Below, piece by piece: positions 886 through 31,722 of a stretch of 32,000 nt of DNA. Source of the DNA: Halogeometricum borinquense DSM 11551 (GTDB taxonomy: Archaea; Halobacteriota; Halobacteria; Halobacteriales; Haloferacaceae). The notes under the pieces are model-generated. The model worked only from the letters and a program-made list of their open reading frames with translations, was not told where the DNA came from and did not search any database. Position 1 is the stretch's first letter. Each line of letters starts with the position of its first letter. A program made the translations under genes and the position numbers. The stretch covers positions 60,001 to 92,000 of the forward strand of contig NC_014732.1 of NCBI RefSeq assembly GCF_000172995.2, in the 5' to 3' direction.

Positions 886-892
886 CAGAGAT

Positions 893-5506: not shown

Positions 5507-5696
5507 CGATACCGCTCACTGCGGCGGGTCATCGCGCTATCCACTGCTGCGTCGGGTCCGCCGGTCGAACGCAGCGACCATATCGCCAGCAGAACAAGCC
5601 GCAACCGCCACTTCGTCAGGTCACCGACGGCAGCCGCTGGGCTCTGTTGGTCTCCAGTAGTATCCAGAACCGTGTATCGGACTACGTAGTACCGAC

Positions 5697-6965: not shown

Positions 6966-7112
6966 CGCTGGTACCTGCCACAACCGGTGACGAATAAAAC
7001 GTTACGCAGGTTAGGAACCGTGAACTCGTTCGACAGAACGTTCGCCGCCGCATAATTAAGTCCGATTCGCCAGTGAAGACAGTATACCCCGCCGCCACAC
7101 GGCGCGACACCC

Positions 7113-8951: not shown

Positions 8952-9083
8952 ATGGCTGAACCGATCTGCCAAGTGGGCTGCTACGCCGAGTACTAGAATG
9001 CCTCGATTCAGGCGACAGCGGCGTCTTCGAAGAATAGCCCGCCCATAACTATCCCGGGAGGGGCCGTCCCAACGGCCACTACG

Positions 9084-10523: not shown

Positions 10524-10868
10524 TCGGTCCCCAACGACGGTTGTTTTTGTCTAAAATAGTAAATATAGATGACATTTATGTCTGGTCGCAACAAATAGTG
10601 GCGACGAGCAACAGAGAGAAGCGGCGAAAACGGACAGAGGTGGCACTAGAACAGAGAGGGCGTTGGATCTGAGACGGAGGGGTACACGGACAGATTGGAA
10701 AAATCAGCCGTCTACGAAGAGATTTGAAGATTATTTGTCACTTTGTCAGTTAGCCGTTCCCTGTTATCGGCTAGTTCCGTATTCAGCTTCGGTTTCCAGA
10801 TGCCACAAGTGGGATTATCGTGGCTAACTTTGGTTTGTGATTACGTGTCAAATGGTAACGTGCCAGCC

Positions 10869-15329: not shown

Positions 15330-15468
15330 TTCGTTCGGCCCAAAGGCAAGATAACGGTTTGTGCCTTCCGGACGTTGACTTCTGAAAACAGGATCTCAGA
15401 CACTCTCACGGCTCGTTATCGGGTATTCACCAACTAACTATTTTCACTGGAACGAAACGACGGAGCAA

Positions 15469-16407
15469 ATGAAACGGTTCCTCGTCGTCCTCACGTGTCT
15501 CGCTGTCCTCCTTGCAGGAGTCAGTATCAGTGCAAACGCTGTCGAAGCGCAGTCGAACGAAACAACCTACTCGCTGGACACCCCCGGAAGCGTCACCGTC
15601 CACGACCGGAAAGCGACCATCGGCGGAACAGAGAGGGACATCACCTCACTTGTCGGGATGTATCCGGGTGAAGAGGTGCTTGTCAACGTGGCCGCACCAG
15701 CAGACGAACTCGCCGTTGTTACCGTCCGGACGGCGGACGGAACCGTCCGCCAGAAGGATAGTGTGACGACAGGTGAGAGTGTTCTCGTAGACAGTTCCGA
15801 ATACGACCCCGGTACCTACTACCTCGTACTCTCGACAGATGGGCAGGTACGAACGGTCAGCCTCCTCATCGTCTCGAAGTACCGAGTGAGTTTCGGATTC
15901 GACTCGATAACAGATGAGGCGCTTACCGGTGATGTGACGGTTGCTGGTGGCGTCAGTGATGCCGAATCGGTCCAACTTGTCCTCTCGAACGATGAAGCCG
16001 ACTTCCGGACGGAGGCCGGGACAGTGCGCAAGGGCCTCCACGACTTCAGTCTCGCACTTGAGGACGTTCCCGACGGAAACTACACCGCGATCATCGAAGT
16101 CGTCAAGACGGAAGCGAACGGCACGAGGACGATACTCGCCACGAGTCAAGTCCGCACAGTCACTGTCGGATCAACCGACACCGGTGAGAGCGTTGCCGTC
16201 GCATCCGATACAACGGAGACGGAGGCTGGCCCAACTGACGCATCTGCCGAGGTGAAGACCGCAACCAAGACCGCTGGGCTGGACAACGGTGAAACTGTTG
16301 CACCGACCGAGTCGGACTCAACGGTTCCCGACCTCAGTCCGGCCGTCCTCTTTGCCATCCTCGTCTCGTTGGCCATCGTTTCCCGCATCCGAAGACTGAC
16401 CCGTTAA
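15469..16407 (+). CDS. secreted surface protein, unknown family, with C-terminal TM anchor lacking PGF
   Basis: 312 aa. It has a signal peptide (MKRFLVVLTCLAVLLAGVSISANA), beta-rich acidic modules, a T/E/A-rich linker, and then LSPAVLFAILVSLAIVSRIRRLTR. Confidence 0.75.
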   Translation: MKRFLVVLTCLAVLLAGVSISANAVEAQSNETTYSLDTPGSVTVHDRKATIGGTERDITSLVGMYPGEEVLVNVAAPADELAVVTVRTADGTVRQKDSVTTGESVLVDSSEYDPGTYYLVLSTDGQVRTVSLLIVSKYRVSFGFDSITDEALTGDVTVAGGVSDAESVQLVLSNDEADFRTEAGTVRKGLHDFSLALEDVPDGNYTAIIEVVKTEANGTRTILATSQVRTVTVGSTDTGESVAVASDTTETEAGPTDASAEVKTATKTAGLDNGETVAPTESDSTVPDLSPAVLFAILVSLAIVSRIRRLTR

Positions 16408-16462
16408 TCTGTTCCTAACAGCATTAGATCACGGGACTGAGTGCCGACGATAGGGAGAATGC

Positions 16463-16510
16463 AAACTGTCGTCCAGTGGAAACCCCAAACTGTCGTCCAG
16501 TAGAGACCCT
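16463..16510 (+). repeat. 24-bp tandem direct repeat (2 copies plus partial) upstream of the 16552 gene; copy 1 contains TCCAGTGGAAAC
   Basis: AAACTGTCGTCCAGTGGAAACCCC (16463-16486) is followed by AAACTGTCGTCCAGTAGAGACCCT (16487-16510) and then AAAC. Confidence 0.8.
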
Positions 16511-16551
16511 AAACAAAAGGTACTATAGTGTTCAGATGACTGTCAGGCAGT

Positions 16552-17430
16552 ATGGGAAACGGGCTGAGCGTCGTGAATGCTGTCGGTAGTGGTTTGCTGG
16601 TTTTTGCGGTGCTTATGCTATTTGCATCGCCGATTCTCTATCGAGGGTGGCAGAACCGGGTGAAATATCACGAGTATGCTCGTCTCCATGCAAAGTCGCC
16701 AAACGTGGCTACAGACGGCGAAATCGCACTGCTATCTGGTCGGATAAAGGACACAAAGAATCAGATTAAGTCACCAGTACAGTCAGAAGACTGTGTAATG
16801 GCGTTCTGGAAGGTTGCGACGTACTTCCGGTATGGGCTACTTGGTGTGAAGGCGCACTGGTCAGAAGAGGGAGTTGGTATCGACGCGGGAGAGATTGTAC
16901 TCGCTGGGGACCACGAGGACGTGATAATTGAGGGAGCTAGTGGCAGCCAACAATTGGATTCGCGGGACAAGCTTGGGAAGATTGCTGGTTCCAAGCGGGA
17001 TTCGGTTCTTGGTTCCATTTCACTCATGCTTGACGGTTCCAAATTTGAAGACAGGGTGCATCCAACAGCGGACTGGCCGCAAGAATACGAGAATCTCGGC
17101 GCGAGAGTCGGGGTTCAGAGCGATGAGCATCAGTCACAAGGGGTTCTCGGCCGGTTGCTGAGCAAGTTGCGAACGCCAGCAGGGACAGTACAGTTCCAAG
17201 AGGCAGTGATGCGGGCGGGTGAGCCACTAACAGTTGTCGGACGAGTCGTCGGTAGTCGAGATAAGCGAGTGAAATTGGAAGAAAATGACGCTGTGGACCC
17301 GATTATTACTCGATTGTCACCATCAGAGCTACGGTCGAAACATCGAAGAGCGTACGTAACACAACTGTACGCCGTTCCGCTGGTCTTGATCGCGTTTGCT
17401 TCACTAACGGGGTATGCTGTCTACCTGTAA
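16552..17430 (+). CDS. two-TM membrane protein, possibly GIDE-domain-like; compositionally atypical
   Basis: 292 aa with N-terminal and C-terminal hydrophobic helices. The architecture G.IALLSGRI....IKSPVQSEDCVMAFWKV....GIDAGEIVLAGDHEDVII resembles prokaryotic GIDE (PF12483-like) proteins as I recall them. It is Lys-rich, and its third-codon-position GC is lower than in neighbouring genes. Confidence 0.65.
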   Translation: MGNGLSVVNAVGSGLLVFAVLMLFASPILYRGWQNRVKYHEYARLHAKSPNVATDGEIALLSGRIKDTKNQIKSPVQSEDCVMAFWKVATYFRYGLLGVKAHWSEEGVGIDAGEIVLAGDHEDVIIEGASGSQQLDSRDKLGKIAGSKRDSVLGSISLMLDGSKFEDRVHPTADWPQEYENLGARVGVQSDEHQSQGVLGRLLSKLRTPAGTVQFQEAVMRAGEPLTVVGRVVGSRDKRVKLEENDAVDPIITRLSPSELRSKHRRAYVTQLYAVPLVLIAFASLTGYAVYL

Positions 17431-17813: not shown

Positions 17814-19067
17814 TCAGGTTCCGTGGAATTCGTCGAGCGTCGTCGGTTTGTCGCCGTCGTCGAGGTACGGATCGATGCTGTCGTGGACGCCGACGAGTTC
17901 GACGGTGTCCGACATCGCCGAGAGAATGAGTTCGACATCCATGTCGAGTGCGTATTCACGGTACGTTCCACCACGGCGGCCTTCGTTCCGTTCGGTGACT
18001 GAGACGATGCCCAGCATAGCGAGTTCGCTCAGATGGTCGCGCATCCGTCGCGGAACAAGTGGGTCGCGGTTTGCGAGTTCGGCAAAACGGGTGTAGCGGG
18101 GTCGAACATCGCGCGAACGGATGGGTGTCTCGTCTTCAAGGTCCAAGGTGAGGAGAGCGTAGAGGACAAGGTGACCATGCTCGGTCAGTCCGTTGATACC
18201 CTCTTTGATTCGGCCGCGTTCGAGAGCACGACGTCCACGCCGGACGTGATCTTCTTCGATGGTCTCGGTATCTTCGTCGCGTGCAAGATCACCTGCCTTC
18301 ATGAGAAGGTCGATTGACTGGCGCGCATCACCCGCGTCTTTCGCGCCGTAGGCGGCACACAGCGGGATAACTTCCTCCGAGAGGACGCCGTCGTGGAAGG
18401 CGACTTCCGCCCGCTGTTCGAGGATGGCACGGAGATTTTCGGCGTTGTAGGCGGGGAAATGAATCTCCTGTTCGCACAGTGAACTCTTGACTTTCGGGGA
18501 GAGGTCGTCGCGGAAAGAGAAGTCGTTCGAGATACCGATAAGACCGATTTTTGCGACTTCGAGATTGCCGTTGGCGCGGGCACGGGGGAGTTGATACAAG
18601 ATGCTGTCATCGTTGACGTGATCGATCTCGTCAAGAACGACGAGAACGGTTCCCGCTCGGTCGTCGAGTTCCTCCCAGAGCATCTCGTAGACCGAGGCGA
18701 GAGGGTAGCCCGTCGTAGATATCTGATTCGATTCCGACCGAAGGCTGTTAACAAGACGAGTAGCAATCTGGTACGAACTCGTGAGTCCGTCGCAGTTGAG
18801 GAACGTCACCGAGAGGTCGATGTCGTCGTACTGGGCAGCGTCCTCACGGAGGTGCGAAAGGAGGTACTTCGTCGCTGCGGTTTTTCCGACTCCGGTTTTC
18901 CCGTACAGGAAAACGTTGTTTGGTTGCTCGCCGTTGATCACGGGCTGGAGTGCCGCCTGATACGTTCGGAGTTCTTCGTCTCTCCCAACGAGTTGTTCGG
19001 GCTGGTAATCCTCACGAAGGGCATCCCGGTCCCGATAGATGTCGTTGTCCCGCTCGAACAGCGCCAT
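17814..19067 (-). CDS. orc1/cdc6: Orc1/Cdc6 replication initiator
   Basis: The likely start is the ATG at 19067 (MALFERDNDIYRDRDALREDYQPEQLVGRDEE...); the track starts at a GTG at 19079. It has Walker A LYGKTGVGKTA, Walker B LVVLDEIDH and a C-terminal winged helix (LGIVSVTERNEGRRGGTYREYAL). Confidence 0.95.
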   Translation of the reverse strand: MALFERDNDIYRDRDALREDYQPEQLVGRDEELRTYQAALQPVINGEQPNNVFLYGKTGVGKTAATKYLLSHLREDAAQYDDIDLSVTFLNCDGLTSSYQIATRLVNSLRSESNQISTTGYPLASVYEMLWEELDDRAGTVLVVLDEIDHVNDDSILYQLPRARANGNLEVAKIGLIGISNDFSFRDDLSPKVKSSLCEQEIHFPAYNAENLRAILEQRAEVAFHDGVLSEEVIPLCAAYGAKDAGDARQSIDLLMKAGDLARDEDTETIEEDHVRRGRRALERGRIKEGINGLTEHGHLVLYALLTLDLEDETPIRSRDVRPRYTRFAELANRDPLVPRRMRDHLSELAMLGIVSVTERNEGRRGGTYREYALDMDVELILSAMSDTVELVGVHDSIDPYLDDGDKPTTLDEFHGT

Positions 19068-19091
19068 GAACACGTCCACTCATCGGTGGCT

Positions 19092-19099
19092 TATAAAAC
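19092..19099 (-). promoter_or_regulatory. candidate TATA box of orc1/cdc6 (leaderless spacing)
   Basis: The minus strand reads TTTTATAA, centred ~28 nt upstream of the ATG at 19067 and directly abutting an ORB-like element. Confidence 0.45.
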
Positions 19100-19125
19100 C
19101 ACCGCGTCCGGAGTGTCCGCTGTTC
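19099..19125 (-). repeat. composite ORB-like element overlapping the orc promoter
   Basis: The minus strand reads GAACAGCGGACACTCCGGACGCGGTGG, followed by TTTTATAA. Confidence 0.65.
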
Positions 19126-19147
19126 TCGAAGTATATAAAGAATGGCG

Positions 19148-19179
19148 AACACACACCCCCTCCACTTTGTCCGGAGTTC
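19148..19179 (-). repeat. ORB-like element, long class with G-string
   Basis: The minus strand reads GAACTCCGGACAAAGTGGAGGGGGTGTGTGTT. Confidence 0.75.
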
Positions 19180-19224
19180 TAGTGAAAAGAGGAGGTGGGG
19201 GTCGTGACGAGCAGCAGTAACCCT

Positions 19225-19345
19225 TAGTAAACCGACGGTTTTATTGTGTAGCCAACCAAGTTACTCCGTAGTCCTCTTTGAAAGAGATAATGAGTGAGGG
19301 AACGAACGAATATTCTCTTTCTAGTGTGTATAAACCGCTAAACCG
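19225..19345. other. AT-richer spacer between inverted long ORBs (candidate DUE 1)
   Basis: It lies between the 19148(-) and 19417(+) long ORBs and contains the 13-bp palindrome CTCTTTGAAAGAG at 19274-19286. Confidence 0.4.
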
Positions 19346-19416
19346 GCAACTCTGGTGCGCGTAATCATCCGACATCTCATTCGGTCACCTATCCCCCTCA
19401 CCCCTCCACAAGACGA

Positions 19417-19446
19417 GAACAGCGGACAAAGTGGAGGGGGTGTGTT
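19417..19446 (+). repeat. ORB-like element, long class with G-string
   Basis: GAACAGCGGACAAAGTGGAGGGGGTGTGTT; identical over 30 nt to the copy at 20020. Confidence 0.8.
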
Positions 19447-19631
19447 GCGACAGTTGGAACGACACGGAGCTACGTTGAAACCGACTTAGAACCGTGCTGG
19501 ACCCGGCTACGAACGTGTTTGGGACACAGAGTGCAGTAAAATCGCCTTAGCGAGGAGCGTGACAAGCTATCGACTGGATCGTTCGTCCCATTACACTGTT
19601 TTGATGACGATGCCGATTCACCGAATCCCAA

Positions 19632-19657
19632 GAACAGCGGACATGGTGGTGTGTTCG
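19632..19657 (+). repeat. ORB-like element, short class
   Basis: GAACAGCGGACATGGTGGTGTGTTCG. Confidence 0.7.
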
Positions 19658-19740
19658 AGAGACGATTGACGTTCGAGCTACGACTCAAATTCGAACTCGA
19701 GATTGATCTGTATTCGAATCGCATCTGAAACTTGTCGATA

Positions 19741-19764
19741 ACTCCGGACAAAGTGGGGTTCGAG
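19741..19764 (+). repeat. ORB-like element, minimal class
   Basis: ACTCCGGACAAAGTGGGGTTCGAG. Confidence 0.55.
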
Positions 19765-19828
19765 ACGACTTTTATTCTCTGACAAATAGCATTATTTTGC
19801 GAATTTAAACACGTTCTATAGGGTTATT
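19765..19828. other. most AT-rich stretch of the origin region (candidate DUE 2)
   Basis: ACGACTTTTATTCTCTGACAAATAGCATTATTTTGCGAATTTAAACACGTTCTATAGGGTTATT, flanked by two minimal ORB-like copies. Confidence 0.45.
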
Positions 19829-19850
19829 ACTCCGGACGCGATGGTTTCGC
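19829..19850 (+). repeat. ORB-like element, minimal class
   Basis: ACTCCGGACGCGATGGTTTCGC. Confidence 0.5.
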
Positions 19851-20019
19851 TTTGAGAAACGAAGTGACTGCTACTTGGGTGTCGAAATAAGCTCTGCCAA
19901 CTCAAATAAACTGTGCTAACTCAGTATGATGGCTCGAGATGCAATCTCTGGTTCGACCAAACCGACGCTATACTGACCGAACTGACGTCACAGTTCGTCC
20001 GGGTACTCTCTCAGTTGTA

Positions 20020-20051
20020 GAACAGCGGACAAAGTGGAGGGGGTGTGTTCG
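20020..20051 (+). repeat. ORB-like element, long class with G-string
   Basis: GAACAGCGGACAAAGTGGAGGGGGTGTGTTCG. Confidence 0.8.
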
Positions 20052-20206
20052 ACAGTACGTTCGAGAATAGCGGTATCAATGGGGTAACACAGCTGAGTTT
20101 TCGTCACGATCTCCAAAATGCCGCGGTCATTCTCCTGCGCACGCGAGCGAAGAAGATAATATACTGACCTAGTCTATCACCGACACAGTCTATCATTGAC
20201 TCTCAA

Positions 20207-20230
20207 CGAACACCACTCCGTCCGCTGTTC
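20207..20230 (-). repeat. ORB-like element, short class
   Basis: The minus strand reads GAACAGCGGACGGAGTGGTGTTCG. Confidence 0.65.
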
Positions 20231-20309
20231 TTTGTGAGCTCTCGACCGTTGTTACCGTTCGAGAGACGGAAGTGCTTAGAGTTAAGTTTCGCGCCCGAGT
20301 GATTTAGAT

Positions 20310-20732
20310 ATGGTCAAACTCGACGACGTGGATCCTGATGAACTTCGTCGTACTCTCGCAGAGGTCGATTCCGCGAAGGAGGCGAAGCGACTCGTCGTCG
20401 CTTTAGACTATCTCGACGACGTACCGGTTTCTGTTCTCGCAGATCGGTACGGAATCCCGCGTTCAACGCTGTACTACTGGCTTGACCGATTCGAGACTGA
20501 ATCCATTGAGGAGGCGATAACCGATGAGGATCGTCCGGGCCGTCCTCGGAAACTCGACGAGGAGGACCGAAACCGACTCCGCAGTCACCTCGATACGACG
20601 CCCAGAGAGTACAACTACGATGCAGACGAGTGGACTCCGGAACTCGTTAGAGAGCATGTTGAGCATACGTTCGGCGTGACGTACTCTGTCGGTCATATTC
20701 GTCGTCTCCTCCGTGACCTGCAGTCTTCGTGA
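20310..20732 (+). CDS. stand-alone HTH / winged-helix protein resembling the N-terminal DNA-binding part of IS630-family transposases (no DDE domain)
   Basis: 140 aa. It has LADRYGIPRSTLYYWLDRFE (HTH), RPGRPRKL, and EWTPELVREHVEHTFGVTYSVGHIRRLLRDL (second winged helix). No DDE-domain ORF follows. Confidence 0.75.
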   Translation: MVKLDDVDPDELRRTLAEVDSAKEAKRLVVALDYLDDVPVSVLADRYGIPRSTLYYWLDRFETESIEEAITDEDRPGRPRKLDEEDRNRLRSHLDTTPREYNYDADEWTPELVREHVEHTFGVTYSVGHIRRLLRDLQSS

Positions 20733-20840
20733 AACTAGCGCGCTTTTCATTTCCAACTCGTTCTATCGATTCAGGAATTTGTCTCCGGCACCTTGAGGCG
20801 GAACGTATTTACTAACACGTACTCACGTATCTAACGTTCA

Positions 20841-21506
20841 ATGAGTAGTGACGAGAGCGAAACGCCGAGACGAGGTCGTCGAAGCAAGGTCCAACGACTC
20901 ATCGACGAGTACGACCTCGACGGCGAGGGTGAACGCTTAGAAGACCTGTGGACGGCGAATCGGGAGGAGCGTCTGAGTCTCCGTGAACTCGCTGACGACT
21001 TTAACCGGCGACTCCTTCGCGCAGTCATGGTCGAGGTGGGGATGAATCCGCTTGACGGCGAGGTAGCCAATACGTATCGACTCCTGACAGACGATGATGT
21101 CTCGAGCGGGATGCAGACGCAGGCCAGACAGACGCTTGAGCGCGAGGGGGTCGATGTGGATGATCTCCAGAAGAACTTCGTTTCACACCAGGCAATACAC
21201 ACGTATCTAACGAAGTACCGCGGTGTTACACAGGATAAACAAACCGACGAGGATCGTATCCAGAAAGGTCTCGACACCATCCAACGCCTCCGGAGCCGGA
21301 CGGCAGCTGTCTCCGAGAACATTGTCGAAAACCTCGTGAGTACGGGTCGCATACATGTCGGCGATTTCGAAGTCCTCGTGGATGTTCGTGTCTTCTGCCG
21401 CGACTGCGGGACGCAGTACGACGTGCAGGATCTCTTGGAGGAGGGTCAGTGCGAGTGCGGCGGCGACATCGTCTCCACCGGGAGCGAGGCAGATGTGTCG
21501 GAGTGA
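20841..21506 (+). CDS. rdfA: RdfA / hp24-like protein (rod-determining-factor family) with C-terminal zinc ribbon
   Basis: 221 aa (~24 kDa). The blocks SLRELADDFNRRLL, LDGEVANTYRLLTDDDVSSG and LEREGVDVDDL match my memory of haloarchaeal RdfA proteins. It has a C-terminal CRDC...CEC zinc ribbon (21396-21458) and lies immediately upstream of an Sph-type SMC-like gene, as in the known pairs. Confidence 0.6.
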   Translation: MSSDESETPRRGRRSKVQRLIDEYDLDGEGERLEDLWTANREERLSLRELADDFNRRLLRAVMVEVGMNPLDGEVANTYRLLTDDDVSSGMQTQARQTLEREGVDVDDLQKNFVSHQAIHTYLTKYRGVTQDKQTDEDRIQKGLDTIQRLRSRTAAVSENIVENLVSTGRIHVGDFEVLVDVRVFCRDCGTQYDVQDLLEEGQCECGGDIVSTGSEADVSE

Positions 21507-21566
21507 CGACCTGTTCTGACGGACTACCGTTGTCGGTTCTCTCGGCTCGAGGGATTCTGTGTAACA

Positions 21567-21592
21567 ACGTTACAGCGTTATTACTGTAACGT
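21567..21592. promoter_or_regulatory. perfect 9-bp inverted repeat (8-nt spacer) between the rdfA-like and sph-like genes
   Basis: ACGTTACAG-cgttatta-CTGTAACGT. Confidence 0.5.
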
Positions 21593-21643
21593 CTCCACAG
21601 CGTGTGATGAAGTATTATATGCCTTCAACGTCTTCACTCCGAT

Positions 21644-23587
21644 ATGAGTCGTGCACAGTCTACGACAGGGACCGTTACACTCCACGTCGAGAATATTGGC
21701 GGAATCAGAGAGACAACGGTCGAACTCGGCCCCGGAGTCACGGCGCTTGCGGGTCGAAATGCCACGAACCGAACATCGCTTTTGCAGTCGATTATGGCGG
21801 CGCTCGGAAGCGACCGGGCTTCGCTGAAGGGGGATGCTGATGAGGGGTCAGTAACGCTCACCGTCGGTGATCAGACGTACACCCGAACGCTGAAACGACG
21901 CGGGAGTACTGTCGTCACGGAGGGGGACCCGTACCTCGAAGACGCAACGCTTGCTGACCTCTTTGCTTTCCTCCTTGAGTCGAATGAGGCTCGACAGGCC
22001 GTCGCCCGCGGCGACGACCTGCGTGAACTCATCATGCGGCCCATCGACACCGAGGCGATACAGGAGGAAATTCGTGAACTCGAACAGGAAAAACGAGAGA
22101 TCGACAACGAGATCTCCAGTCTCGATTCTCTCGACGGCCGACTCCCCGAACTCGAACAAAAGCGCACGTCGCTGAAAGAGAAGATCGAGGAGAAACGCGC
22201 CGAACTGGAGGAGAAAGAACAGGAGATCGAGGAAGCCGATGCCAACGTCGAGCAGACGCGGGACGACCGCGACGAACTGGAGAATCGTCTCGACGACCTG
22301 AAACAGGCACGGTCGGACCTCGAAGACGTTCGATACGACATCGACGCCGAGGCCGAGAGCATCGATGCGCTTGAAACCGAACGGGATGAACTCACGACTG
22401 AACGTGAAGATATCCCCGAGGAGATCGACGGTGCTGACGAAATCGAGGCGCAGATTTCCGACCTCCGCGATCAGATGCAACGACTCGATTCCAGCGTCAA
22501 CGAACTCCAGACGGTCATCCAGTTCAACGAGGACATGCTGGAGGGAACGAGTGCGGACGTTGCTGCGGCCCTCCGCGACGGGACCGACAGTGGCTCGGTC
22601 ACTGACGCATTGGTCGAGTCGGATACGGTCGTCTGTTGGACCTGTGGTACCGAAGTCGAGACGAGTCAGATCGAAGAAACCGTAGACCGTCTCCGGTCGC
22701 TCCGCCGCGAAAAACTCGACCAGCGGAACGACCTTCGTGACCAGATTGATGACCTCGAATCCGAGCGCGACGAACTCGAACAACTGCACCGCCGTCGCGG
22801 ACGACTCGACGACCGCCTCCAGAGCATTGACGAGGAACTTGACCGACGCCGAGAGCGCCGCGAGTCGTTGAAACAAAAGCGCGAGGATCTCACCAATCGA
22901 GTTGAGACGCTCGAATCCGAGGTTGAGGAGTTGGAGTCCCGCGATTACGGCGACATCCTCGAACGCCACCGCGAGGCGAACGAACTGGAGTTCGAGATCG
23001 GTCGGCTCGAAAACGAACTCGAATCGGTCAACTCCGAGATGGAGTCCGTCGAGTCCCGTCTGGATGACCGCGACGATCTGGAAGCCCGACGCGAGGAGAT
23101 CGCCGACGAACTCGCGGACCTCCGGACGCGTATCGAGCGTATCGAGTCTGAGGCTATCGAGGAATTCAACACTCACATGGAAACCGTCCTCGACATCCTC
23201 GACTACGATAACCTCGACCGCATCTGGATCGAACGGACCGAACAGACCGTCCGTGAGGGTCGGCGGAAAGTCCAAAAATCGGTGTTCGACATGCATATCA
23301 TTCGCAGTACCGACGATGGGGCCACGTACGAGGACACCATCGACCACCTCTCGGAGAGTGAACGTGAGGTAACCGGTCTCGTCTTCGCCCTCGCTGGATA
23401 TCTCGTCCACGACGTTCACGAGACGGTACCGTTCATCCTTCTCGACTCCCTGGAGGCTATCGACTCGGGCCGTATCGCTCAGTTGGTAGACTACATCAGC
23501 GAGTACGCTGAGTACACCGTCGCGGCCCTCCTCCCCGAGGACGCGTCGGCACTCGACGACCAGTACGAACGCGTCCGCGAGATCTGA
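21644..23587 (+). CDS. sph: archaea-specific SMC-related protein (Sph family)
   Basis: 647 aa. It has an N-terminal head (VENIGGIRETTVELGPGVTALAGRNATNRTS), two long acidic coiled-coil arms, a CWTC at residues 331-334, and a C-terminal head with the signature-like LSESEREVTGLVFALAG and Walker B-like PFILLDSLEAID. Confidence 0.88.
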   Translation: MSRAQSTTGTVTLHVENIGGIRETTVELGPGVTALAGRNATNRTSLLQSIMAALGSDRASLKGDADEGSVTLTVGDQTYTRTLKRRGSTVVTEGDPYLEDATLADLFAFLLESNEARQAVARGDDLRELIMRPIDTEAIQEEIRELEQEKREIDNEISSLDSLDGRLPELEQKRTSLKEKIEEKRAELEEKEQEIEEADANVEQTRDDRDELENRLDDLKQARSDLEDVRYDIDAEAESIDALETERDELTTEREDIPEEIDGADEIEAQISDLRDQMQRLDSSVNELQTVIQFNEDMLEGTSADVAAALRDGTDSGSVTDALVESDTVVCWTCGTEVETSQIEETVDRLRSLRREKLDQRNDLRDQIDDLESERDELEQLHRRRGRLDDRLQSIDEELDRRRERRESLKQKREDLTNRVETLESEVEELESRDYGDILERHREANELEFEIGRLENELESVNSEMESVESRLDDRDDLEARREEIADELADLRTRIERIESEAIEEFNTHMETVLDILDYDNLDRIWIERTEQTVREGRRKVQKSVFDMHIIRSTDDGATYEDTIDHLSESEREVTGLVFALAGYLVHDVHETVPFILLDSLEAIDSGRIAQLVDYISEYAEYTVAALLPEDASALDDQYERVREI

Positions 23588-24405: not shown

Positions 24406-26736
24406 TCAGTCGCGGCGGATTGTGAGGAGTGCCGCGGCGAGGAGTGCCACGATTGCAACGACGACACCGAACCCGGGCGTTCCGGTTTCCGTTTCGGTTT
24501 CGGTGACCGTCTCGGTTTCCGTTTCAGTCTCGGTGACTGTCTCAGTTTCCGTTTCGGTGCCGGTGGTTGTCTCGGTTTCCGTTTCGGTCTCGGTGACTGT
24601 CTCAGTTTCCGTTTCGGTCATATTGCCGACTTCGGCGACGTTTCCATCGACGGTGACGGAGTCGGCCGCACCGCCGCGGACGGTCACGTCGAACGTGTCA
24701 CCCACTTCCTGCTCGCTAAAGTCGAACATACCTTGGTAGGTGCCGTTTTCGGTGACGTAGACGGTCGCCGTCTTCAGGAAACTCGGCTGTGTGTCGCCCG
24801 TCGAACGGACGCGCAGACTGAGTTCCGTCCCGGGTGCGACTGTCGTCTCGCCCGCTATCGTCTGGTCGGCTACGGCTGAGACGTTTACCGGTTCGTCCAG
24901 TGAGTGCTCGGCTTCGACGATAGCGTACCCGTCTTCGACGGTTTGTTCTTCGTCAGCGAGGTTCCCCTCGTCTTCGTAGACCGTGAAGTTCGCCGTCAGT
25001 TCGTGGTCGGCGCTGAGGTCAACTGTCTGACCGCCCGGGCGCTGACCGATCACGTCGTCCGTGTCGAACGCGACGAAGTAGTTGTCGTTCACCGGGTCGG
25101 GGATGACGACGGTGTTCGAGGCGTCGAGTTGGAGTACGAACGGCTGACGGTTCGCACCGGGGTTCGACTGCTCGACGGTCAGTTCGTACAGGTTGCCGTT
25201 CGGTGCGAAGAACGCCGCAGTGTCGTTCCCGCTTTGCACATCGAGTACGCCTTCCAGACCGGATGCGTTCAACTGATGGATGACGATGTCACCATCAGCG
25301 ATGGTGTCGGATCTGGTGACGTTTGCATTTTCGATGGCCTCATACACATCGTCGCTGTCGTCGAGCGTCGTGCCCGTCGGTGCAGTCCAACTGGCGAGCG
25401 AGTCGGTACTCCGCTCTTCGAGGATCAGCGTCCCAACGCCTTGTGCGTCGGCGGCGGCGTCACTCCCGGTACGAACTTCGAGGTCGTACTCGCCGGCGTC
25501 AAGGAGCGAACTGACCGTATTCTGCGGATCAATATCACTTGTGACGAGTTCGTCGTCGCTGTCGGCGACTTCGAACACGTCACCGCTGACGCCGCTCGTG
25601 GCAGCGTAGGTGTTGAACAGTACGGACACTTCCCCGTCGCCGGAGTCGTCTTGAACTGTGACGTTGGCACGGAAGCCGACATCGTCGCTGCCGACAGTCA
25701 ACGTCGCTTCGTCAGCGTTCGCGATACTGACAGTGATGTTTGCGATGTCGCCGCGCTGTTGATTGACGATTCTGTCCTTGATACTTGCCCGACCTTCACC
25801 GGCTGTCGAAACGATGATGGTACTCGATTCAGTGACGACGCCGGATCCGAGATCGGTCACTTCGACAGTGTACTCGCCGGTCTCGACGGGACCGAGCGAG
25901 AACTCGTACTCGCCTTGCCCGCTCAGGTCGGCCGTGACTGATTCACCGCTGACGGCGTCGCCGTCGCTGTCGAGGAGTTCGACTTTCACACCGCGGTCAC
26001 CGGCGTTCGCGGTGACGGTACCCTCGATGCTTTCCTCGTCCGTGACGCTCGTTTCGTCGAGGTCGACGTCGAGTCCGAGTTCGCGGAGTTCGATAGTCGC
26101 TTCGTTACTTCCATCGAAGGTGACGGCATAGCTACCGATTCTGCGGTTCTCGGTGTTGAACGTGTAGACGCGACTGTTCGTCCCGGTGGAACCCGAGGCG
26201 AAGAAGTCTTCCGTCTCGTCGTCGGTGCCGCTGACTTCGATGTCAGTATTGACCGATGCCGCTTCGACGGCGACGATAGAGCCCTTGTAGGCGTTCACGT
26301 CTCCGTTCGGACCGACAGTGGTCGCCGCGAACGCGACATCTTTTCGACCGCTGTTCGAGAGGTCGTTGTTCGACGTATCTTCGATGTCGTCCGAGAGCCG
26401 GACTTCGATATCGTGTGACTGTACGACTTCGTTCATCTCGATAACGACGCGGCCCGCGTCGGGTTGAGTGATGTCGCTGACTTGGCCCGACAGATCTTCG
26501 TCGTCGTCGAAGACGGTGAAGTTGGCCGTCGTCAGGCTGTTGCTGTTCACCTCCGTGTCGAAGGGTACCTCGATAACAGCAGTGTCGCTGCTGTTGACGT
26601 AGTGTACGGCACCGCCGTCGTAACTGAATGTTGTCTGTGCCGCACTCGCCCCCGCGAACGCGACGGTCCCGGCGAATACCGAGAGGACCATCAGCGCAGA
26701 GAGAGCGATTGCCCGTGTTTTGTACGTGTGACTCAT
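24406..26736 (-). CDS. S-layer-like cell surface glycoprotein with PGF-CTERM
   Basis: The likely start is the ATG at 26736 (MSHTYKTRAIALSALMVLSVFAGTVAFAGASAAQ signal peptide). It is a long acidic beta-rich ectodomain with many N-x-S/T sequons, a (TETE/TV)n linker, and then GTPGFGVVVAIVALLAAALLTIRRD. Confidence 0.92.
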   Translation of the reverse strand: MSHTYKTRAIALSALMVLSVFAGTVAFAGASAAQTTFSYDGGAVHYVNSSDTAVIEVPFDTEVNSNSLTTANFTVFDDDEDLSGQVSDITQPDAGRVVIEMNEVVQSHDIEVRLSDDIEDTSNNDLSNSGRKDVAFAATTVGPNGDVNAYKGSIVAVEAASVNTDIEVSGTDDETEDFFASGSTGTNSRVYTFNTENRRIGSYAVTFDGSNEATIELRELGLDVDLDETSVTDEESIEGTVTANAGDRGVKVELLDSDGDAVSGESVTADLSGQGEYEFSLGPVETGEYTVEVTDLGSGVVTESSTIIVSTAGEGRASIKDRIVNQQRGDIANITVSIANADEATLTVGSDDVGFRANVTVQDDSGDGEVSVLFNTYAATSGVSGDVFEVADSDDELVTSDIDPQNTVSSLLDAGEYDLEVRTGSDAAADAQGVGTLILEERSTDSLASWTAPTGTTLDDSDDVYEAIENANVTRSDTIADGDIVIHQLNASGLEGVLDVQSGNDTAAFFAPNGNLYELTVEQSNPGANRQPFVLQLDASNTVVIPDPVNDNYFVAFDTDDVIGQRPGGQTVDLSADHELTANFTVYEDEGNLADEEQTVEDGYAIVEAEHSLDEPVNVSAVADQTIAGETTVAPGTELSLRVRSTGDTQPSFLKTATVYVTENGTYQGMFDFSEQEVGDTFDVTVRGGAADSVTVDGNVAEVGNMTETETETVTETETETETTTGTETETETVTETETETETVTETETETGTPGFGVVVAIVALLAAALLTIRRD
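24485..24619 (-). repeat. 30-bp-period coding tandem repeat (~4.5 copies) encoding the Thr/Glu linker
   Basis: GTTTCC recurs at 24485, 24515, 24545, 24575 and 24605. The repeat encodes TETETVTETE units just upstream of the PGF-CTERM signal. Confidence 0.9.
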
Positions 26737-27063
26737 GGTTTCTACTACTCCTCGTAACCCAGTCAGAACGGCCACCGATATCCCCAATGGATTAGCGTGT
26801 TACAGGCCGGTCGGACTGGTTTCTAGTGAGGATGTACTGACTCGTGAGACTGGTGAGAGTAAGTACTTTGTGTTAGTTTCGACTATTAACTATGTGATAA
26901 TATTGCTCTCTGTTTCTCTCTGTACGTAATTCGGGATTTTTGCTTTGACTCCCTGGTTGTCCTTACTGTTGGTCGCGCACCTGTGATTGGACCACTTCTC
27001 CCGCGAGACGATATCGAAGGCACCGTTCGGATGCGACCGACTTCTTCCTCGCGGGAAGATATC

Positions 27064-30509: not shown

Positions 30510-30914
30510 CTAATCGTGTTCCGTGAACGGGATGTCCCGCGTTGAGAGGATGATTTCAGCGACCTCTTCGGGGTGTTCCGCGGCGACACGAACAAGGGCA
30601 TCGTGGAACTCGCGGCCGGTCAAATCGCGTACGTCGTGTTCGCGGCGAAGCACTGACTCTACCTCGAACTCCGCGTCGTCCATCACCGATAGCGTCTCCG
30701 GGCGGACGTAGACGCTCTTGGCTGTCGTGTCCTCGAATTCGAACGCCGGGCCAGACGATGATGACATCTGTTCGTCCGCATCGCTTGTTGCGGTATTTTC
30801 TGTGGCGTCCTTCTCTCTATCACTGGATTCGTCCGCTGAAACCTCGACTTCTTTTTCGGGTTCCTCTTCTTCGACTACGTCGCCGAGCCCCGAGAACCGG
30901 TTTTCGTCAGGCAT
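30510..30914 (-). CDS. small acidic protein translationally coupled to parA (candidate ParA partner / centromere-binding adaptor)
   Basis: 134 aa from the ATG at 30914 (MPDENRFSGLGDVV...). This start overlaps the parA stop by 8 nt (ATGCCTGA). It has an acidic low-complexity N-terminal half and a structured C-terminal half. No family was recognised. Confidence 0.6.
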   Translation of the reverse strand: MPDENRFSGLGDVVEEEEPEKEVEVSADESSDREKDATENTATSDADEQMSSSSGPAFEFEDTTAKSVYVRPETLSVMDDAEFEVESVLRREHDVRDLTGREFHDALVRVAAEHPEEVAEIILSTRDIPFTEHD

Positions 30915-31722
30915 CCGTGCCTCCGTTTTCGACGACTTGCGCCAGTTTGTCGAGTCGGTCGAGCATGTCGCTGTTGGGATCGTATTCTCTGAGTGTCTCA
31001 CCGTCGCGCCATGCGCGACTGAATGCGATGCGATGGCGGAGCCCCGGCCCCGGCGATTCACCGAATCGCTCGGATCGTGCAAACGACGGGAGGTACTGCT
31101 CGAATGGCGACGATTCGAGGTCGTCGATGATGCGCTTTTCCTCGTTGTTGCCGCTCAAATCGTTTGGTACGATGGCGAGAATACCGAGATCGACTTCCTT
31201 GCGGATCGGTCGAATCTGCTGTTCGACCATGCGTTCGAATCCGCTGACGCTCGGTTCGCTCATCAGAAGTGGGACGATGACGTTCCCAGCACCGATGAGC
31301 GAGGCGTCTGAGAGGGGACCGAGACTCGGCGGTGAGTCGATGACGATGTAGTCGTACTCCTCACCGAGGAGCGGTTCGATGATACGCCGTCGGACCCACA
31401 GCACGCCGAACGTGGAGTTGCGGATACGGTCTTCGATGTCGTCTAAGTCAACGTGTGCGGGGATAAGATCGAATTCACCTCGGTCGTGGATGATTTCCCG
31501 TACGTCTACGGGGTCGTCGTCGGTCAGCAGGTCACCGACGTGTGGCTCTTCGGTCTCGTAGAGGTCCTTTCGACCGACGCCCTCCGTCGCGTTCCCCTGC
31601 TGGTCGAGATCAACGAGGAGCACGTCGTTCCCCCGCGCTGCGAGAGCGTCCGCGAGGTTGATCGCGACTGTTGTCTTTCCGACGCCTCCTTTCTGCAGTG
31701 AGACGCTCACGGCGCGTGCCAT
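30907..31722 (-). CDS. parA: ParA/Soj-family partition ATPase
   Basis: 271 aa. It has the deviant Walker A QKGGVGKTTVAINLA, Walker A-prime LLVDLDQQGN and Walker B YDYIVIDSPPS. Confidence 0.93.
   Translation of the reverse strand: MARAVSVSLQKGGVGKTTVAINLADALAARGNDVLLVDLDQQGNATEGVGRKDLYETEEPHVGDLLTDDDPVDVREIIHDRGEFDLIPAHVDLDDIEDRIRNSTFGVLWVRRRIIEPLLGEEYDYIVIDSPPSLGPLSDASLIGAGNVIVPLLMSEPSVSGFERMVEQQIRPIRKEVDLGILAIVPNDLSGNNEEKRIIDDLESSPFEQYLPSFARSERFGESPGPGLRHRIAFSRAWRDGETLREYDPNSDMLDRLDKLAQVVENGGTDA

What the first reader, a model, noticed from the sequence alone, without database searches (positions are those of the whole stretch)
20310..23587. Origin-adjacent three-gene module: solo HTH, RdfA/hp24-like zinc-ribbon protein and Sph-type SMC-like protein, a candidate replicon-dedicated organisation/segregation system
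Seen: three co-oriented genes start 80 bp after the last ORB. They encode a 140-aa double winged-helix DNA binder, a 221-aa protein with a CxxC...CxC ribbon, and a 647-aa coiled-coil ATPase-like protein. Established, as far as I recall: the hp24-sph1 pair in Halobacterium salinarum and the rdfA-sph3 pair in Haloferax volcanii are chromosomal and are linked to the cell cycle and rod-shape determination. Inference: a paralogous pair sits here on a replicon with its own orc and parA, flush against the origin and preceded by a DNA-binding protein. This arrangement suggests a role in compaction, cohesion or positioning of this replicon, or in sensing foreign DNA as in the bacterial SMC-like Wadjet and Lamassu systems, rather than in cell shape. 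To my knowledge no mechanism is known for this family.
Basis: partly seen in the sequence, partly recalled or inferred. Interest (0 to 1): 0.75.

Follow-up and report, generated by a model that had tools for sequence, protein, structure and literature searches.

The report
Plasmid-origin-adjacent HTH, RdfA and Sph2-type genes
Next to the replication origin of a Halogeometricum megaplasmid sit a small DNA-binding gene and an already-catalogued RdfA/Sph2-type gene pair; the placement beside the origin is a peculiarity of a few related genera, not evidence of a plasmid-specific segregation machine.

Summary
An orc1/cdc6 gene and about 1.15 kb of ORB repeats are followed, 78 bp later, by three co-oriented genes. 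These are a 140-aa IS630-type HTH protein, a 221-aa RdfA-family zinc-ribbon protein and a 647-aa Sph/ASRP SMC-like protein.

- The window is pHBOR04 (60,001-92,000) of Halogeometricum borinquense.
- The origin (Hbor_36740) and the pair (Hbor_36760/36770, group 3, Sph2-type) are already listed in published supplements.
- Known RdfA-Sph pairs are mostly plasmid-borne, not chromosomal.
- Among 80 other RdfA loci, Orc lies within 10 kb at 9, no more than chance once one lineage is collapsed. The HTH lies within 10 kb at 11.
- The orc-origin-HTH-rdfA-sph block is conserved only in Halogeometricum and Halopelagius, and is rearranged in Salinigranum.
- H. volcanii Sph2 mutants have cell-wide phenotypes.
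- Defence-system models match only the coiled coil.

Best reading: this is a trans-acting Sph2-type RdfA-Sph assembly with a facultative local regulator, placed beside the origin by lineage-specific synteny.

Side findings: a family-wide palindrome next to rdfA/sph genes, invariant non-canonical ATPase motifs in Sph, and an RdfA fold with no PDB match.

The parts
17814..19067 (-). orc1/cdc6 initiator gene (Hbor_36740 of pHBOR04; the ORF extends to 19079 if the GTG start is used)
   Evidence: TIGR02928 E 3e-134 and Cdc6_lid/Cdc6_C domains. About 80% nucleotide identity to the Haloferax pHV4-type orc. The coordinates and flanking sequence match those given by Wu 2012 for Hbor_36740 at 77814-79067.
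19096..20232 (.). Origin region with eight ORB or mini-ORB repeats in both orientations. Full copies are AGAACAGCGGACAAAGTGGAGGGGGTGTGTT at 19416-19446 and 20019-20049, with inverted copies at 19151-19183 and 20210-20232. An AT-rich stretch lies around 19770-19830.
   Evidence: Repeat families D1-D3 and inverted pairs I1-I9 and the sequence itself. Already predicted as the pHBOR04 origin in Wu 2012 Additional file. Origin activity was not tested.
20269..20288 (+). Conserved promoter-like block upstream of the HTH gene (GAAGTGCTTAGAGTTAAGTT; TATA-like element at about -30 to -22)
   Evidence: Largely conserved across the six aligned orthologous sequences from five species, at synonymous divergence of about 1; Halopelagius differs at several positions. 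Promoter function is inferred.
20310..20732 (+). 140-aa stand-alone double HTH protein, homologous to the N-terminal DNA-binding region of IS630 transposases and lacking a DDE domain (inferred to be Hbor_36750 from tag order)
   Evidence: HTH_32 1.6e-16 and HTH_29 1e-10. NF033545 IS630 positions 2-109 of 299, at 72.6 bits against a cutoff of 100. dN/dS 0.08-0.16. Solo homologues of 50-61% identity are annotated as HTH proteins on other plasmids.
20795..20813 (+). Conserved promoter-like block upstream of rdfA (GAGGCGGAACGTATTTACT; TATA-like element at about -36 to -29). The rest of the HTH-rdfA gap is not conserved.
   Evidence: Phylogenetic footprint. A T-rich tract (GCGCTTTTCATTTCC) follows the HTH stop codon. 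Independent transcription is inferred.
20841..21506 (+). RdfA-family protein (Hbor_36760): all-alpha domain, a long helix (residues 136-167) and a C-terminal CxxC...CxC zinc ribbon
   Evidence: PF21811 E 2.9e-77. Invariant cysteines. AF2 model with pLDDT 86.9 and no PDB fold match. Listed in Schiller 2024 Supplementary Table 2.
21569..21590 (.). Perfect palindrome GTTACAG-N8-CTGTAAC in the rdfA-sph gap, about 54-75 nt upstream of the sph ATG; candidate operator
   Evidence: Conserved in all orthologues. It is the only copy in the window. The motif is strongly enriched next to rdfA/sph genes in 80 independent loci. The binding protein is unknown.
21608..21622 (+). Conserved promoter-like block upstream of sph (TGAAGTATTATATGC; TATA-like element at about -29 to -23)
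   Evidence: Phylogenetic footprint. Promoter function is inferred.
21644..23587 (+). Sph/ASRP SMC-like protein (Hbor_36770, group 3, Sph2-type). N-head with P-loop-like GRNATNRTS (residues 37-45), coiled coil with CWTCG zinc hook (C331, C334), C-head with LSESE and LLDS.
   Evidence: NF045487 E 1.5e-215. 60% identity to H. volcanii HVO_B0118. Motif conservation in 54 sequences. Alignment to SMC1A heads.
30510..31722 (-). parA (30907-31722) plus a downstream small ORF (DUF7970 in the homologous locus). This is the replicon's conventional partition-type cassette and is context only, not part of the module.
   Evidence: AAA_31, CbiA and ParA domains. DUF7970 plus ParA are called in L005 and L009. 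This cassette is linked to the block in three Halogeometricum species but not in H. limi or Halopelagius.

Best explanation
This is the replication-origin neighbourhood of the 194-kb megaplasmid pHBOR04 of Halogeometricum borinquense. The initiator gene orc (Hbor_36740) and its ORB-rich origin are followed by three genes, each with its own promoter-like block.

Two of the genes, rdfA and sph, form a co-evolving RdfA-Sph cassette of the published group 3, the Sph2 type (shown). Sph is a zinc-hook, antiparallel coiled-coil, SMC/Rad50-like protein. Its head keeps the SMC-like layout but has lost the canonical catalytic residues (shown). I therefore infer that it works as a Zn-hook-bridged scaffold or tether, at most a nucleotide-binding one, and not as an ATP-driven loop extruder. 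I infer that RdfA, a zinc-ribbon protein with no known fold relative, is its obligate partner or adaptor.

By analogy with H. volcanii Sph2, I infer that the assembly acts in trans on cell-wide processes: the rod/disk shape and motility switch, and recombination or gene conversion between genome copies. I do not think it acts on this plasmid alone.

The 140-aa protein is a domesticated IS630 transposase DNA-binding domain (shown). It most probably acts as a facultative local transcription regulator of the cassette (inferred).

The position flush against the origin is synteny inherited within Halogeometricum and Halopelagius, with a rearranged remnant in Salinigranum. It is not a mechanistic coupling (inferred from the survey).
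For: Identities.

Location and prior listing: Wu 2012 gives Hbor_36740 at 77814-79067, with the same flanking sequence as the window from 19068. Schiller 2024 lists Hbor_36760/36770 as +137, group 3. Sph is 60% identical to HVO_B0118.

The pair behaves as a unit: Sph is adjacent at about 58 of 80 RdfA loci. RdfA and Sph distances give Mantel r 0.81, with 0 of 2000 permutations reaching it.

The pair is not origin-linked in general:
- Orc lies within 10 kb at 9 of 80 loci, and 5 of those are one orc lineage. With 11-12 orc genes per roughly 3.9 Mb and 20.6-kb windows, about 6% is expected by chance.
- ParA lies within 10 kb at 5 of 80 loci.
- The commonest neighbours within 5 kb are IclR regulators (23 of 81) and ABC transporters (23 of 81).
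- The H. volcanii group-3 pair lies among rhamnose genes.
- Only two pairs are listed for the six H. borinquense replicons.

Cell-wide function of the orthologous group: H. volcanii delta-sph2 has a slight growth defect, is rod-locked and over-swarming, shows about 5% survival in the gene-conversion assay, and is synthetically lethal with delta-sph4 (PMC11276520).

Non-canonical head: GRNATNRTS, LLDS and LSESE are invariant in 54 sequences. They align to GPNGSGKSN, LDE and LSGGE of SMC1A. The same motifs occur in H. volcanii Sph2. The Methanohalobium ASRP has a canonical GKT and DE.

HTH as regulator: it is under purifying selection. It is adjacent to rdfA-sph in three arrangements, including the divergent layout typical of local regulators, in Salinigranum. 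Its closest solo homologues are monocistronic genes in unrelated contexts. Other pairs carry IclR or Lrp regulators in the same position.

Separate promoter-like blocks for each gene.
Against: The orc-origin-HTH-rdfA-sph order is kept in five species of two genera at synonymous divergence of about 1, while the genes downstream of sph differ. An orc 87% identical to this one lies 7.5 kb from the HTH/rdfA/sph set in two Salinigranum assemblies. A parA-small ORF-rdfA-sph arrangement recurs at the start of plasmids from two unrelated genera. Of the 60 listed plasmid records, 11 have rdfA within about 12 kb of the record ends. These points leave room for a real link to replicon cores.

No expression, binding or deletion data exist for this organism. 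Transferring Sph2 phenotypes from H. volcanii is inference, and the Soppa-lab tree reports that Sph2 proteins are not monophyletic. The regulator role of the HTH and the scaffold reading of the deviant ATPase motifs are untested.
Confidence: 0.6

Rival explanations
1. One reading: a replicon-dedicated organisation, cohesion or segregation module. The HTH protein binds near the origin and loads the RdfA-Sph complex onto pHBOR04 to compact, pair or position this plasmid.
For: The block is conserved next to the origin in Halogeometricum and Halopelagius. The same orc lineage lies within 7.5 kb in Salinigranum. parA-x-rdfA-sph operon-like arrangements occur on Haladaptatus and Halolamina plasmids. 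The pair is very common on megaplasmids: 134-146 PLSDB records. Sph has SMC-like architecture with a zinc hook. All four H. volcanii Sph proteins affect a DNA transaction, gene conversion.
Against: Most pairs have no orc or parA nearby. The same-group pair in H. volcanii has no orc or parA within 7 kb. Only two pairs are listed for the six H. borinquense replicons. pHBOR04 already has a conventional parA cassette 7 kb away. Each gene has its own promoter-like block. The head lacks the Walker A Lys and the Walker B Glu expected of a DNA-translocating SMC motor. The only apparent partition-gene neighbour of the HTH, in Salinigranum, turned out to be a short coiled-coil protein.
Confidence: 0.2
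2. Origin-coupled expression. The genes act in trans, but their position beside the origin matters. Early replication, or Orc binding at the last ORB about 36 bp upstream of the HTH promoter block, couples their dosage or transcription to replication. This would echo the cell-cycle-linked expression that the first reader recalls for hp24-sph1 in Halobacterium.
For: The last ORB (20210-20232) lies just upstream of the conserved HTH promoter block (20269-20288). The arrangement is retained in five species.
Against: rdfA and sph have their own promoter-like blocks, so only the HTH would be directly affected. The arrangement is absent from most of the family.
Confidence: 0.1
3. An SMC-based anti-plasmid or anti-phage defence system of the Wadjet or Lamassu kind.
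For: PADLOC LmuB and JetC models match Sph (E down to 5e-17).
Against: The matches cover only the coiled-coil region (residues about 136-544), not the heads. RdfA matches no defence family. There is no JetA, JetB or JetD, and no LmuA-type effector or nuclease gene nearby. Catalytic ATPase residues are absent. The genes sit on the plasmid itself.
Confidence: 0.03

Closest known systems
Haloferax volcanii HVO_B0117 / HVO_B0118 (RdfA-family protein and Sph2) on pHV3
   Same: Same published homology group (group 3, above 55% identity). Sph is 60% and RdfA 51% identical. Same R-S gene order, same deviant head motifs and same zinc hook. Both are megaplasmid-borne.
   Different: The H. volcanii pair lies about 131 kb into the pHV3 record among rhamnose-catabolism genes, with an IclR gene downstream. 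It has no orc, no ORBs and no IS630-like HTH nearby. Phenotypes are known only for H. volcanii.
RdfA / Sph3 (HVO_2174 / HVO_2175), the rod-determining pair
   Same: Same two protein families and same adjacency. RdfA matches the Pfam family built around HVO_2174.
   Different: It belongs to a different group (group 1). The H. borinquense orthologue of that pair is Hbor_31810/31800, not this locus. In H. volcanii the delta-sph3 and delta-sph2 shape phenotypes are opposite.
Sph1 with its upstream partner gene (hp24 of Halobacterium salinarum; HVO_A0179/A0180)
   Same: An RdfA-family gene directly upstream of an Sph gene. It is plasmid-borne, with a zinc hook and a coiled coil.
   Different: This is the most divergent Sph branch, about 38% identical over part of the protein. 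It keeps the Walker A GKS, and its Walker B reads VDR. I did not test directly that hp24 is an RdfA-family protein.
ClsN (coalescin) of Sulfolobus and other non-haloarchaeal ASRPs, for example Methanohalobium pMETEV01
   Same: Same ASRP family model (NF045487) and a zinc hook. The methanogen ASRP is also paired with an RdfA gene on a plasmid.
   Different: The methanogen protein has a canonical Walker A (GKT) and Walker B (DE). ClsN organises chromosome compartments, which the ASRP paper considers unlikely for Sph (PMC9389158).
Rad50-Mre11 and SMC-kleisin complexes
   Same: Split ATPase-type head, antiparallel coiled coil, CxxC zinc hook as in Rad50, and a small partner gene encoded immediately upstream.
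   Different: The arms are much shorter, about 190 residues each. The catalytic Lys and Glu are replaced. The RdfA model resembles no solved fold, so it resembles neither Mre11 nor a kleisin.
IS630-family transposases (N-terminal DNA-binding region)
   Same: The 140-aa protein aligns to positions 2-109 of the IS630 transposase model. It is about 40% identical to the N-termini of haloarchaeal IS630 transposases.
   Different: It has no DDE domain, and only 108 bp follow it before rdfA. It scores below the family cutoff. It is conserved at full length under purifying selection in five species.

Membership tests
RdfA family (Pfam PF21811) | Full-length match to the family model above the curated cutoff | tested here: met
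   259 bits against a cutoff of 27; residues 15-206 match profile positions 1-194 of 195.
RdfA family (Pfam PF21811) | Conserved C-terminal CxxC...CxC cysteines and the HQA(I/V)HTYL core | tested here: met
   C186, C189, C204, C206, H116, Q117 and A118 are invariant in alignment A1 and invariant or nearly so in A2.
RdfA family (Pfam PF21811) | Encoded next to an Sph/SMC-like gene | tested here: met
   The 137-bp gap matches the published entry Hbor_36760/36770. Adjacency holds at about 58 of 80 loci.
RdfA family (Pfam PF21811) | Required for rod formation and motility | not testable with these tools
   This is known only for HVO_2174 (PMC10869688).
ASRP / Sph (NCBIfam NF045487) | Full-length match above the curated cutoff | tested here: met
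   717 bits against a cutoff of 300; residues 17-632 match profile positions 1-593 of 593.
ASRP / Sph (NCBIfam NF045487) | Zinc-hook CxxC in the middle of the coiled coil | tested here: met
   C331-W-T-C334-G is invariant in 54 of 54 sequences.
ASRP / Sph (NCBIfam NF045487) | [quoted passage not shown] | tested here: inconclusive
   The motif positions are present, but with GRNATNRTS (Arg for Lys), LLDS (Ser for Glu) and LSESE. This is typical of the Sph2-type clade. It is not true of the Methanohalobium ASRP.
Schiller group 3 (Sph2 type) | More than 55% protein identity to HVO_B0118 (the SMC-like protein may meet the cutoff alone) | tested here: met
   Sph is 60.0% identical over 99% of its length, and RdfA is 51% identical. 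The pair is listed as group 3.
IS630-family transposase | N-terminal HTH DNA-binding region | tested here: met
   NF033545 positions 2-109, E 3.7e-20.
IS630-family transposase | DDE catalytic domain and a score above the family cutoff | tested here: not met
   The protein ends at residue 140. It scores 72.6 bits against a cutoff of 100, and only 108 bp follow before rdfA.
orc-adjacent haloarchaeal replication origin | orc1/cdc6 gene flanked by inverted ORB repeats around an AT-rich stretch | tested here: met
   It was predicted earlier by Wu 2012. Firing activity is not testable here.
Plasmid partition system (NTPase, centromere-binding protein and centromere) | A ParA, ParM or TubZ NTPase encoded together with the DNA-binding protein | tested here: not met
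   There is no such NTPase in the three-gene set. parA lies 7.3 kb away with its own small partner ORF. The HTH neighbour annotated 'chromosome partitioning protein' in Salinigranum is a coiled-coil protein without a P-loop.
Plasmid partition system (NTPase, centromere-binding protein and centromere) | Consistent linkage to the replicon's origin or partition region across relatives | tested here: not met
   Orc lies within 10 kb at 9 of 80 loci and ParA at 5 of 80.
Wadjet (JetABCD) / Lamassu (LmuA, LmuB, LmuC) | Head-domain homology to JetC or LmuB plus kleisin, nuclease or effector partner genes | tested here: not met
   PADLOC matches cover only residues about 136-544, which is coiled coil. 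RdfA has no hit and no partner genes are present in the window.
SMC-kleisin / Rad50-Mre11 | A partner protein with a kleisin or Mre11 fold | tested here: not met
   The RdfA model (pLDDT 86.9) has no PDB match better than E 0.77 and TM 0.25. The profile search of PDB sequences was empty.

The most novel reading that the evidence does not exclude
RdfA-Sph cassettes are DNA-tethering modules of haloarchaeal secondary replicons. In the Halogeometricum, Halopelagius and Salinigranum lineage, a domesticated transposase HTH targets the Zn-hook-bridged Sph-RdfA assembly to the origin region of its own megaplasmid, where it pairs or positions plasmid copies. The shape and gene-conversion phenotypes seen in H. 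volcanii would then be downstream consequences of disturbed replicon organisation in a polyploid cell.
Probability: 0.12. Interest if true: 0.75.

Novelty: new member of a known kind. Interest (0 to 1): 0.35.

Why it matters
The RdfA-Sph family is widespread in haloarchaea. It has strong but puzzling phenotypes in cell shape, motility and gene conversion, plus synthetic lethality, and no known mechanism.

This locus adds little to the family, because the pair and the origin are already in published tables. The comparative work it prompted does give testable handles:
- A sub-lineage in which the cassette is fixed beside an origin together with a domesticated transposase HTH.
- A conserved palindromic element bordering rdfA/sph genes in about 44% of loci.
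- Sph2-type heads that have invariantly lost the catalytic Lys and Glu, which argues against a motor mechanism.

If the origin linkage were functional, it would be a first clue that Sph proteins organise secondary replicons.

Tried and rejected
- **PLSDB megablast of the locus.** It found only orc and Sph relatives. H. borinquense plasmids are not in PLSDB, so I established the replicon identity from Wu 2012 instead.
- **Exact-protein lookup.** It pointed to a 3.99-Mb record, which at first suggested a chromosomal location. Gene spacing showed that this record is a different strain from the window.
- **tblastn survey.** It can miss divergent ParA genes. I complemented it with all-vs-all ORF clustering and Pfam; ParA remained rare.
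- **First gene caller.** It picked shadow ORFs, so I abandoned it.
- **'Chromosome partitioning protein' next to the HTH in Salinigranum.** It looked like support for partition, but it is only a coiled-coil protein.
- **The palindrome.** It is not the CsmR motif or the RosR motif, and the QarA paper gives no binding motif. It also occurs at loci without the HTH gene, so I rejected it as an HTH-specific operator.
- **RdfA against PDB.** Nothing was found by sequence or by fold.
- **PADLOC.** Only coiled-coil matches were found.
- **Not attempted.** I did not predict an Sph structure or an RdfA-Sph complex. The tool folds single chains only, and a model would not settle nucleotide binding.

Full report
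**Observation.** The three co-oriented ORFs are present exactly as described: 20310-20732, 20841-21506 and 21644-23587.
- The first encodes a 140-aa protein made of two HTH/winged-helix modules (HTH_32, HTH_29, HTH_23 and HTH_33). NCBIfam shows that these correspond to positions 2-109 of the 299-position IS630 transposase model, scoring below the family cutoff and lacking the DDE domain.
- The second is a full-length RdfA-family protein (PF21811, E 2.9e-77). Its CxxC...CxC cysteines are invariant.
- The third is a full-length archaea-specific SMC-related protein (NF045487, 717 bits against a cutoff of 300).
- Upstream lies an orc1/cdc6 gene (17814-19067, minus strand). Between it and the module are eight ORB or mini-ORB copies in both orientations (19096-20232). 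The last ORB ends 78 bp before the first ATG.
- A parA gene lies at 30907-31722.
- dN/dS of 0.07-0.16 at dS of about 1 against four orthologous loci shows that all three genes are maintained by selection. This includes the HTH gene, which is therefore not a decaying IS fragment.

**Where this is.** Wu et al. 2012 (PMC3528665) list the only orc of plasmid pHBOR04 of Halogeometricum borinquense as Hbor_36740, minus strand, 77814-79067. They print the origin sequence starting at 79068. It is identical to the window from 19068, and the orc coordinates differ by exactly 60,000. The window is therefore pHBOR04 60,001-92,000. That paper records one orc and one predicted origin for this replicon. In another strain (CP048739.1) the homologous region lies at 1.27 Mb of a 3.99-Mb record, and the origin region there is about 0.9 kb longer.

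**Already in the literature.**
- Schiller et al. 2024 (PMC10869688), Supplementary Table 2, lists Hbor_36760 (RdfA family) and Hbor_36770 (SMC-like) as 'adjacent, serial R-S, +137'. They are placed in group 3 together with HVO_B0117/HVO_B0118, which is Sph2.
- The window gap is 137 bp, and the window Sph is 60% identical to HVO_B0118.
- The H. borinquense orthologue of the rod-determining RdfA/Sph3 pair is a different locus, Hbor_31810/31800.
- The same table shows that three of the four H. volcanii pairs carry HVO_A or HVO_B tags. I located two of them directly on pHV3 and pHV4.
- PLSDB holds RdfA on 134 plasmid records and Sph on 146, including Halobacterium Sph1 and Sph2.

**Is the origin link general?**
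- I fetched 80 RdfA loci from one-genome-per-species archaeal assemblies and scored their neighbours.
- Sph is adjacent at about 58 of the 80 loci.
- Orc lies within 10 kb at 9 of 80. Five of these are one orc lineage: Halogeometricum pallidum, H. limi and Halopelagius at 92-96% identity, and two Salinigranum assemblies at 87%.
- With 11-12 orc genes per roughly 3.9-Mb genome and 20.6-kb windows, about 6% is expected by chance. Once the lineage is collapsed there is no excess.
- ParA lies within 10 kb at 5 of 80.
- Within 5 kb, with the window included (81 loci), the commonest neighbours are IclR regulators (23), ABC-transporter ATPases (23), the IS630-like HTH (12), a histidine kinase (8), Orc (7) and ParA (5).
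- The same-group pair of H. volcanii lies among rhamnose genes, about 131 kb into the pHV3 record.
- Only two pairs are listed for H. borinquense, although it has six replicons.

**What does support a link.**
- The order orc-origin-HTH-rdfA-sph is conserved in H. borinquense, H. luteum, H. limi, H. pallidum and Halopelagius fulvigenes, while the genes beyond sph differ.
- parA-small ORF-rdfA-sph arrangements occur at the start of Haladaptatus and Halolamina plasmids.
- Of the 60 listed plasmid records, 11 have rdfA within about 12 kb of the record ends.
- These observations keep the replicon-core idea alive at low probability.

**The HTH gene.**
- An HTH homologue of at least 49% identity lies within 10 kb at 11 of the 80 loci, in three arrangements. 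It is co-directional and upstream in Halogeometricum, Halopelagius and one MAG. It is divergent and 116-176 bp away in four Salinigranum loci. It is downstream in three loci.
- Where it is adjacent, its divergence tracks that of RdfA and Sph.
- Its closest plasmid homologues (55-61% identity, in Haloprofundus and Halorussus) are monocistronic genes in unrelated sugar or signalling contexts.
- Other pairs carry IclR or Lrp regulators at the equivalent position.
- This pattern fits a facultative local regulator derived from a transposase DNA-binding domain.
- The gene annotated 'chromosome partitioning protein' that follows the HTH in Salinigranum is a 210-aa coiled-coil protein without a ParA domain.

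**Transcription signals.** Alignment of the intergenic regions of six orthologous sequences shows one conserved BRE/TATA-like block about 25-45 nt upstream of each ATG: 20269-20288, 20795-20813 and 21608-21622. The sequence between these blocks is not conserved. Leaderless, separately promoted genes are the simplest reading, which is an inference. The rdfA-sph gap also holds a perfectly conserved palindrome, GTTACAG-N8-CTGTAAC (21569-21590).

**The palindrome is family-wide.**
- TTACA[GC]-N8-[GC]TGTAA occurs 18 times in the 80 independent loci, against 0.1 expected.
- Twelve of the 18 copies lie in the 3.3% of sequence that borders rdfA or sph (P about 3e-14).
- With one mismatch allowed, it borders the pair in 35 of 80 loci.
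- It occurs once in the window.
- It also occurs at loci without the HTH gene, so it is not HTH-specific.
- It differs from the CsmR and RosR motifs.
- Its binding protein is unknown. RdfA itself is a candidate, which is speculation.

**How the proteins probably work.**
- RdfA and Sph co-evolve (Mantel r 0.81, with 0 of 2000 permutations reaching it).
- Sph has a central invariant CWTCG zinc hook flanked by two coiled-coil arms of about 190 residues.
- In 54 of 54 sequences the P-loop position reads GRNATNRTS, the Walker B position reads LLDS and the signature motif reads LSESE. These align with GPNGSGKSN, LDE and LSGGE of SMC1A. The N-terminal stretch of that alignment is not significant on its own, but it is positionally consistent.
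- H. volcanii Sph2 has the same motifs.
- H. volcanii Sph1 keeps GKS but has VDR at Walker B.
- The Methanohalobium ASRP, also plasmid-borne and paired with an RdfA gene, is canonical, with GKT and DE.
- Loss of the catalytic Lys and Glu is thus specific to this clade. It argues for a scaffold or tether, at most a nucleotide-binding one, and against an ATP-driven motor. This is an inference.
- RdfA folds confidently (pLDDT 86.9) into an all-alpha domain, a long helix and a zinc ribbon. It has no PDB match (best E 0.77) and no PDB sequence relative. It is neither a kleisin nor Mre11.
- In H. volcanii, delta-sph2 cells grow slightly more slowly, stay rod-shaped, over-swarm and survive a gene-conversion assay at about 5%. 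The sph2 and sph4 genes cannot be deleted together (PMC11276520). These are cell-wide effects.

**Defence analogy.** PADLOC LmuB and JetC models match only the coiled coil (residues about 136-544). RdfA matches nothing, and no effector or kleisin genes are present.

**Verdict.** The locus is a catalogued Sph2-type RdfA-Sph pair with a facultative HTH partner. It lies beside an already-predicted megaplasmid origin because of synteny specific to a few Haloferacaceae genera. The mechanism proposed here is a trans-acting Zn-hook scaffold with RdfA as adaptor and the HTH as local regulator. That mechanism is inferred, not shown. The replicon-dedicated reading remains possible at about 0.2.

Noticed in passing
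window 21569-21590; also L003, L023, L036, L038, L042, L071, L073, L080, L081 and L094 next to their rdfA/sph genes: The palindrome TTACA[GC]-N8-[GC]TGTAA is a family-wide cis element. There are 18 exact copies in 80 independent RdfA loci against 0.1 expected, and 12 of 18 directly border rdfA or sph (P about 3e-14). With one mismatch it borders the pair in 35 of 80 loci. It does not match the CsmR or RosR motifs, and its binding protein is unknown.
   Followed up: partly
window 21752-21778 (Sph residues 37-45) and 23432-23455 (residues 597-604); L101:7001-8950; L108:2489-4270; L107:1983-3896: Sph2-type proteins invariantly carry GRNATNRTS (Arg in place of the Walker A Lys), LLDS (Ser in place of the Walker B Glu) and LSESE (54 of 54 sequences). 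H. volcanii Sph1 keeps GKS but has VDR. The Methanohalobium ASRP is canonical (GKT, DE). The papers I read describe these proteins simply as having Walker motifs.
   Followed up: partly
L107 (Methanohalobium evestigatum plasmid pMETEV01, 149475-152150): An ASRP gene is followed by a gene annotated RdfA in a halophilic methanogen, again on a plasmid. The RdfA-ASRP pairing is therefore not confined to Halobacteria.
   Followed up: partly
window 20841-21506 (RdfA model ma7d81df2092a): RdfA gives a confident AlphaFold model (pLDDT 86.9) with no significant structural match in the PDB (best Foldseek E 0.77, TM at most 0.25).
   Followed up: yes
L005 (CP048739.1, 1,266,351-1,287,016) against window 19080-20309: In another H. 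borinquense strain the whole region lies inside a 3.99-Mb record, which suggests an integrated plasmid or a merged assembly. The origin there carries an insertion of about 906 bp immediately upstream of the ORB that corresponds to window 20019-20049. The matching draft contig L006 shows an IS200/IS605 Y1-transposase fragment in that insertion.
   Followed up: partly
L002 (Haladaptatus salinisoli plasmid, 327-4620) and L097 (Halolamina sp. CBA1230 plasmid, 575-4583): A co-directional parA - small unknown ORF - rdfA - sph arrangement lies at position 1 of plasmids from two unrelated genera. L097 also has an Lrp regulator and a second rdfA directly after sph.
   Followed up: partly
81 RdfA loci (window plus L017-L096), within 5 kb of the pair: IclR-family regulators are the most frequent neighbours of RdfA-Sph pairs (23 of 81 loci), often directly upstream or convergent downstream. 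This includes H. volcanii pHV3 and H. limi.
   Followed up: partly
window 2677-2997 (-); L004, L103-L106: A 106-aa ORF here resembles HalOD1 (DdfA-type) output-domain proteins, judged by eye and from synteny with the HalOD1 gene of L012; I did not scan it. HalOD1 genes also lie 1-4 kb from the closest solo-HTH homologues in Halorussus and Haloprofundus plasmids. This may be chance, because HalOD1 genes are common.
   Followed up: no
L003:7511-8143 and L036:8658-9290: The Salinigranum gene annotated 'chromosome partitioning protein' directly downstream of the HTH homologue is a 210-aa coiled-coil protein without any ParA/P-loop domain.
   Followed up: yes
window 20163-20194: A tandem direct repeat (ACTGACCTAGTCTATC / ACCGACACAGTCTATC) lies just upstream of the last ORB. 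It is present in both H. borinquense strains but not in the other species.
   Followed up: no
window 88-17430 and 24406-26787: The module is flanked by cell-surface and glycan genes: a nucleotidyltransferase, a phosphomannomutase, two sulfatases, a GT4 glycosyltransferase, a 1528-aa GSDH-PKD-cadherin protein and a 793-aa DUF7827/PGF-CTERM protein with (TE)n-rich repeats.
   Followed up: no
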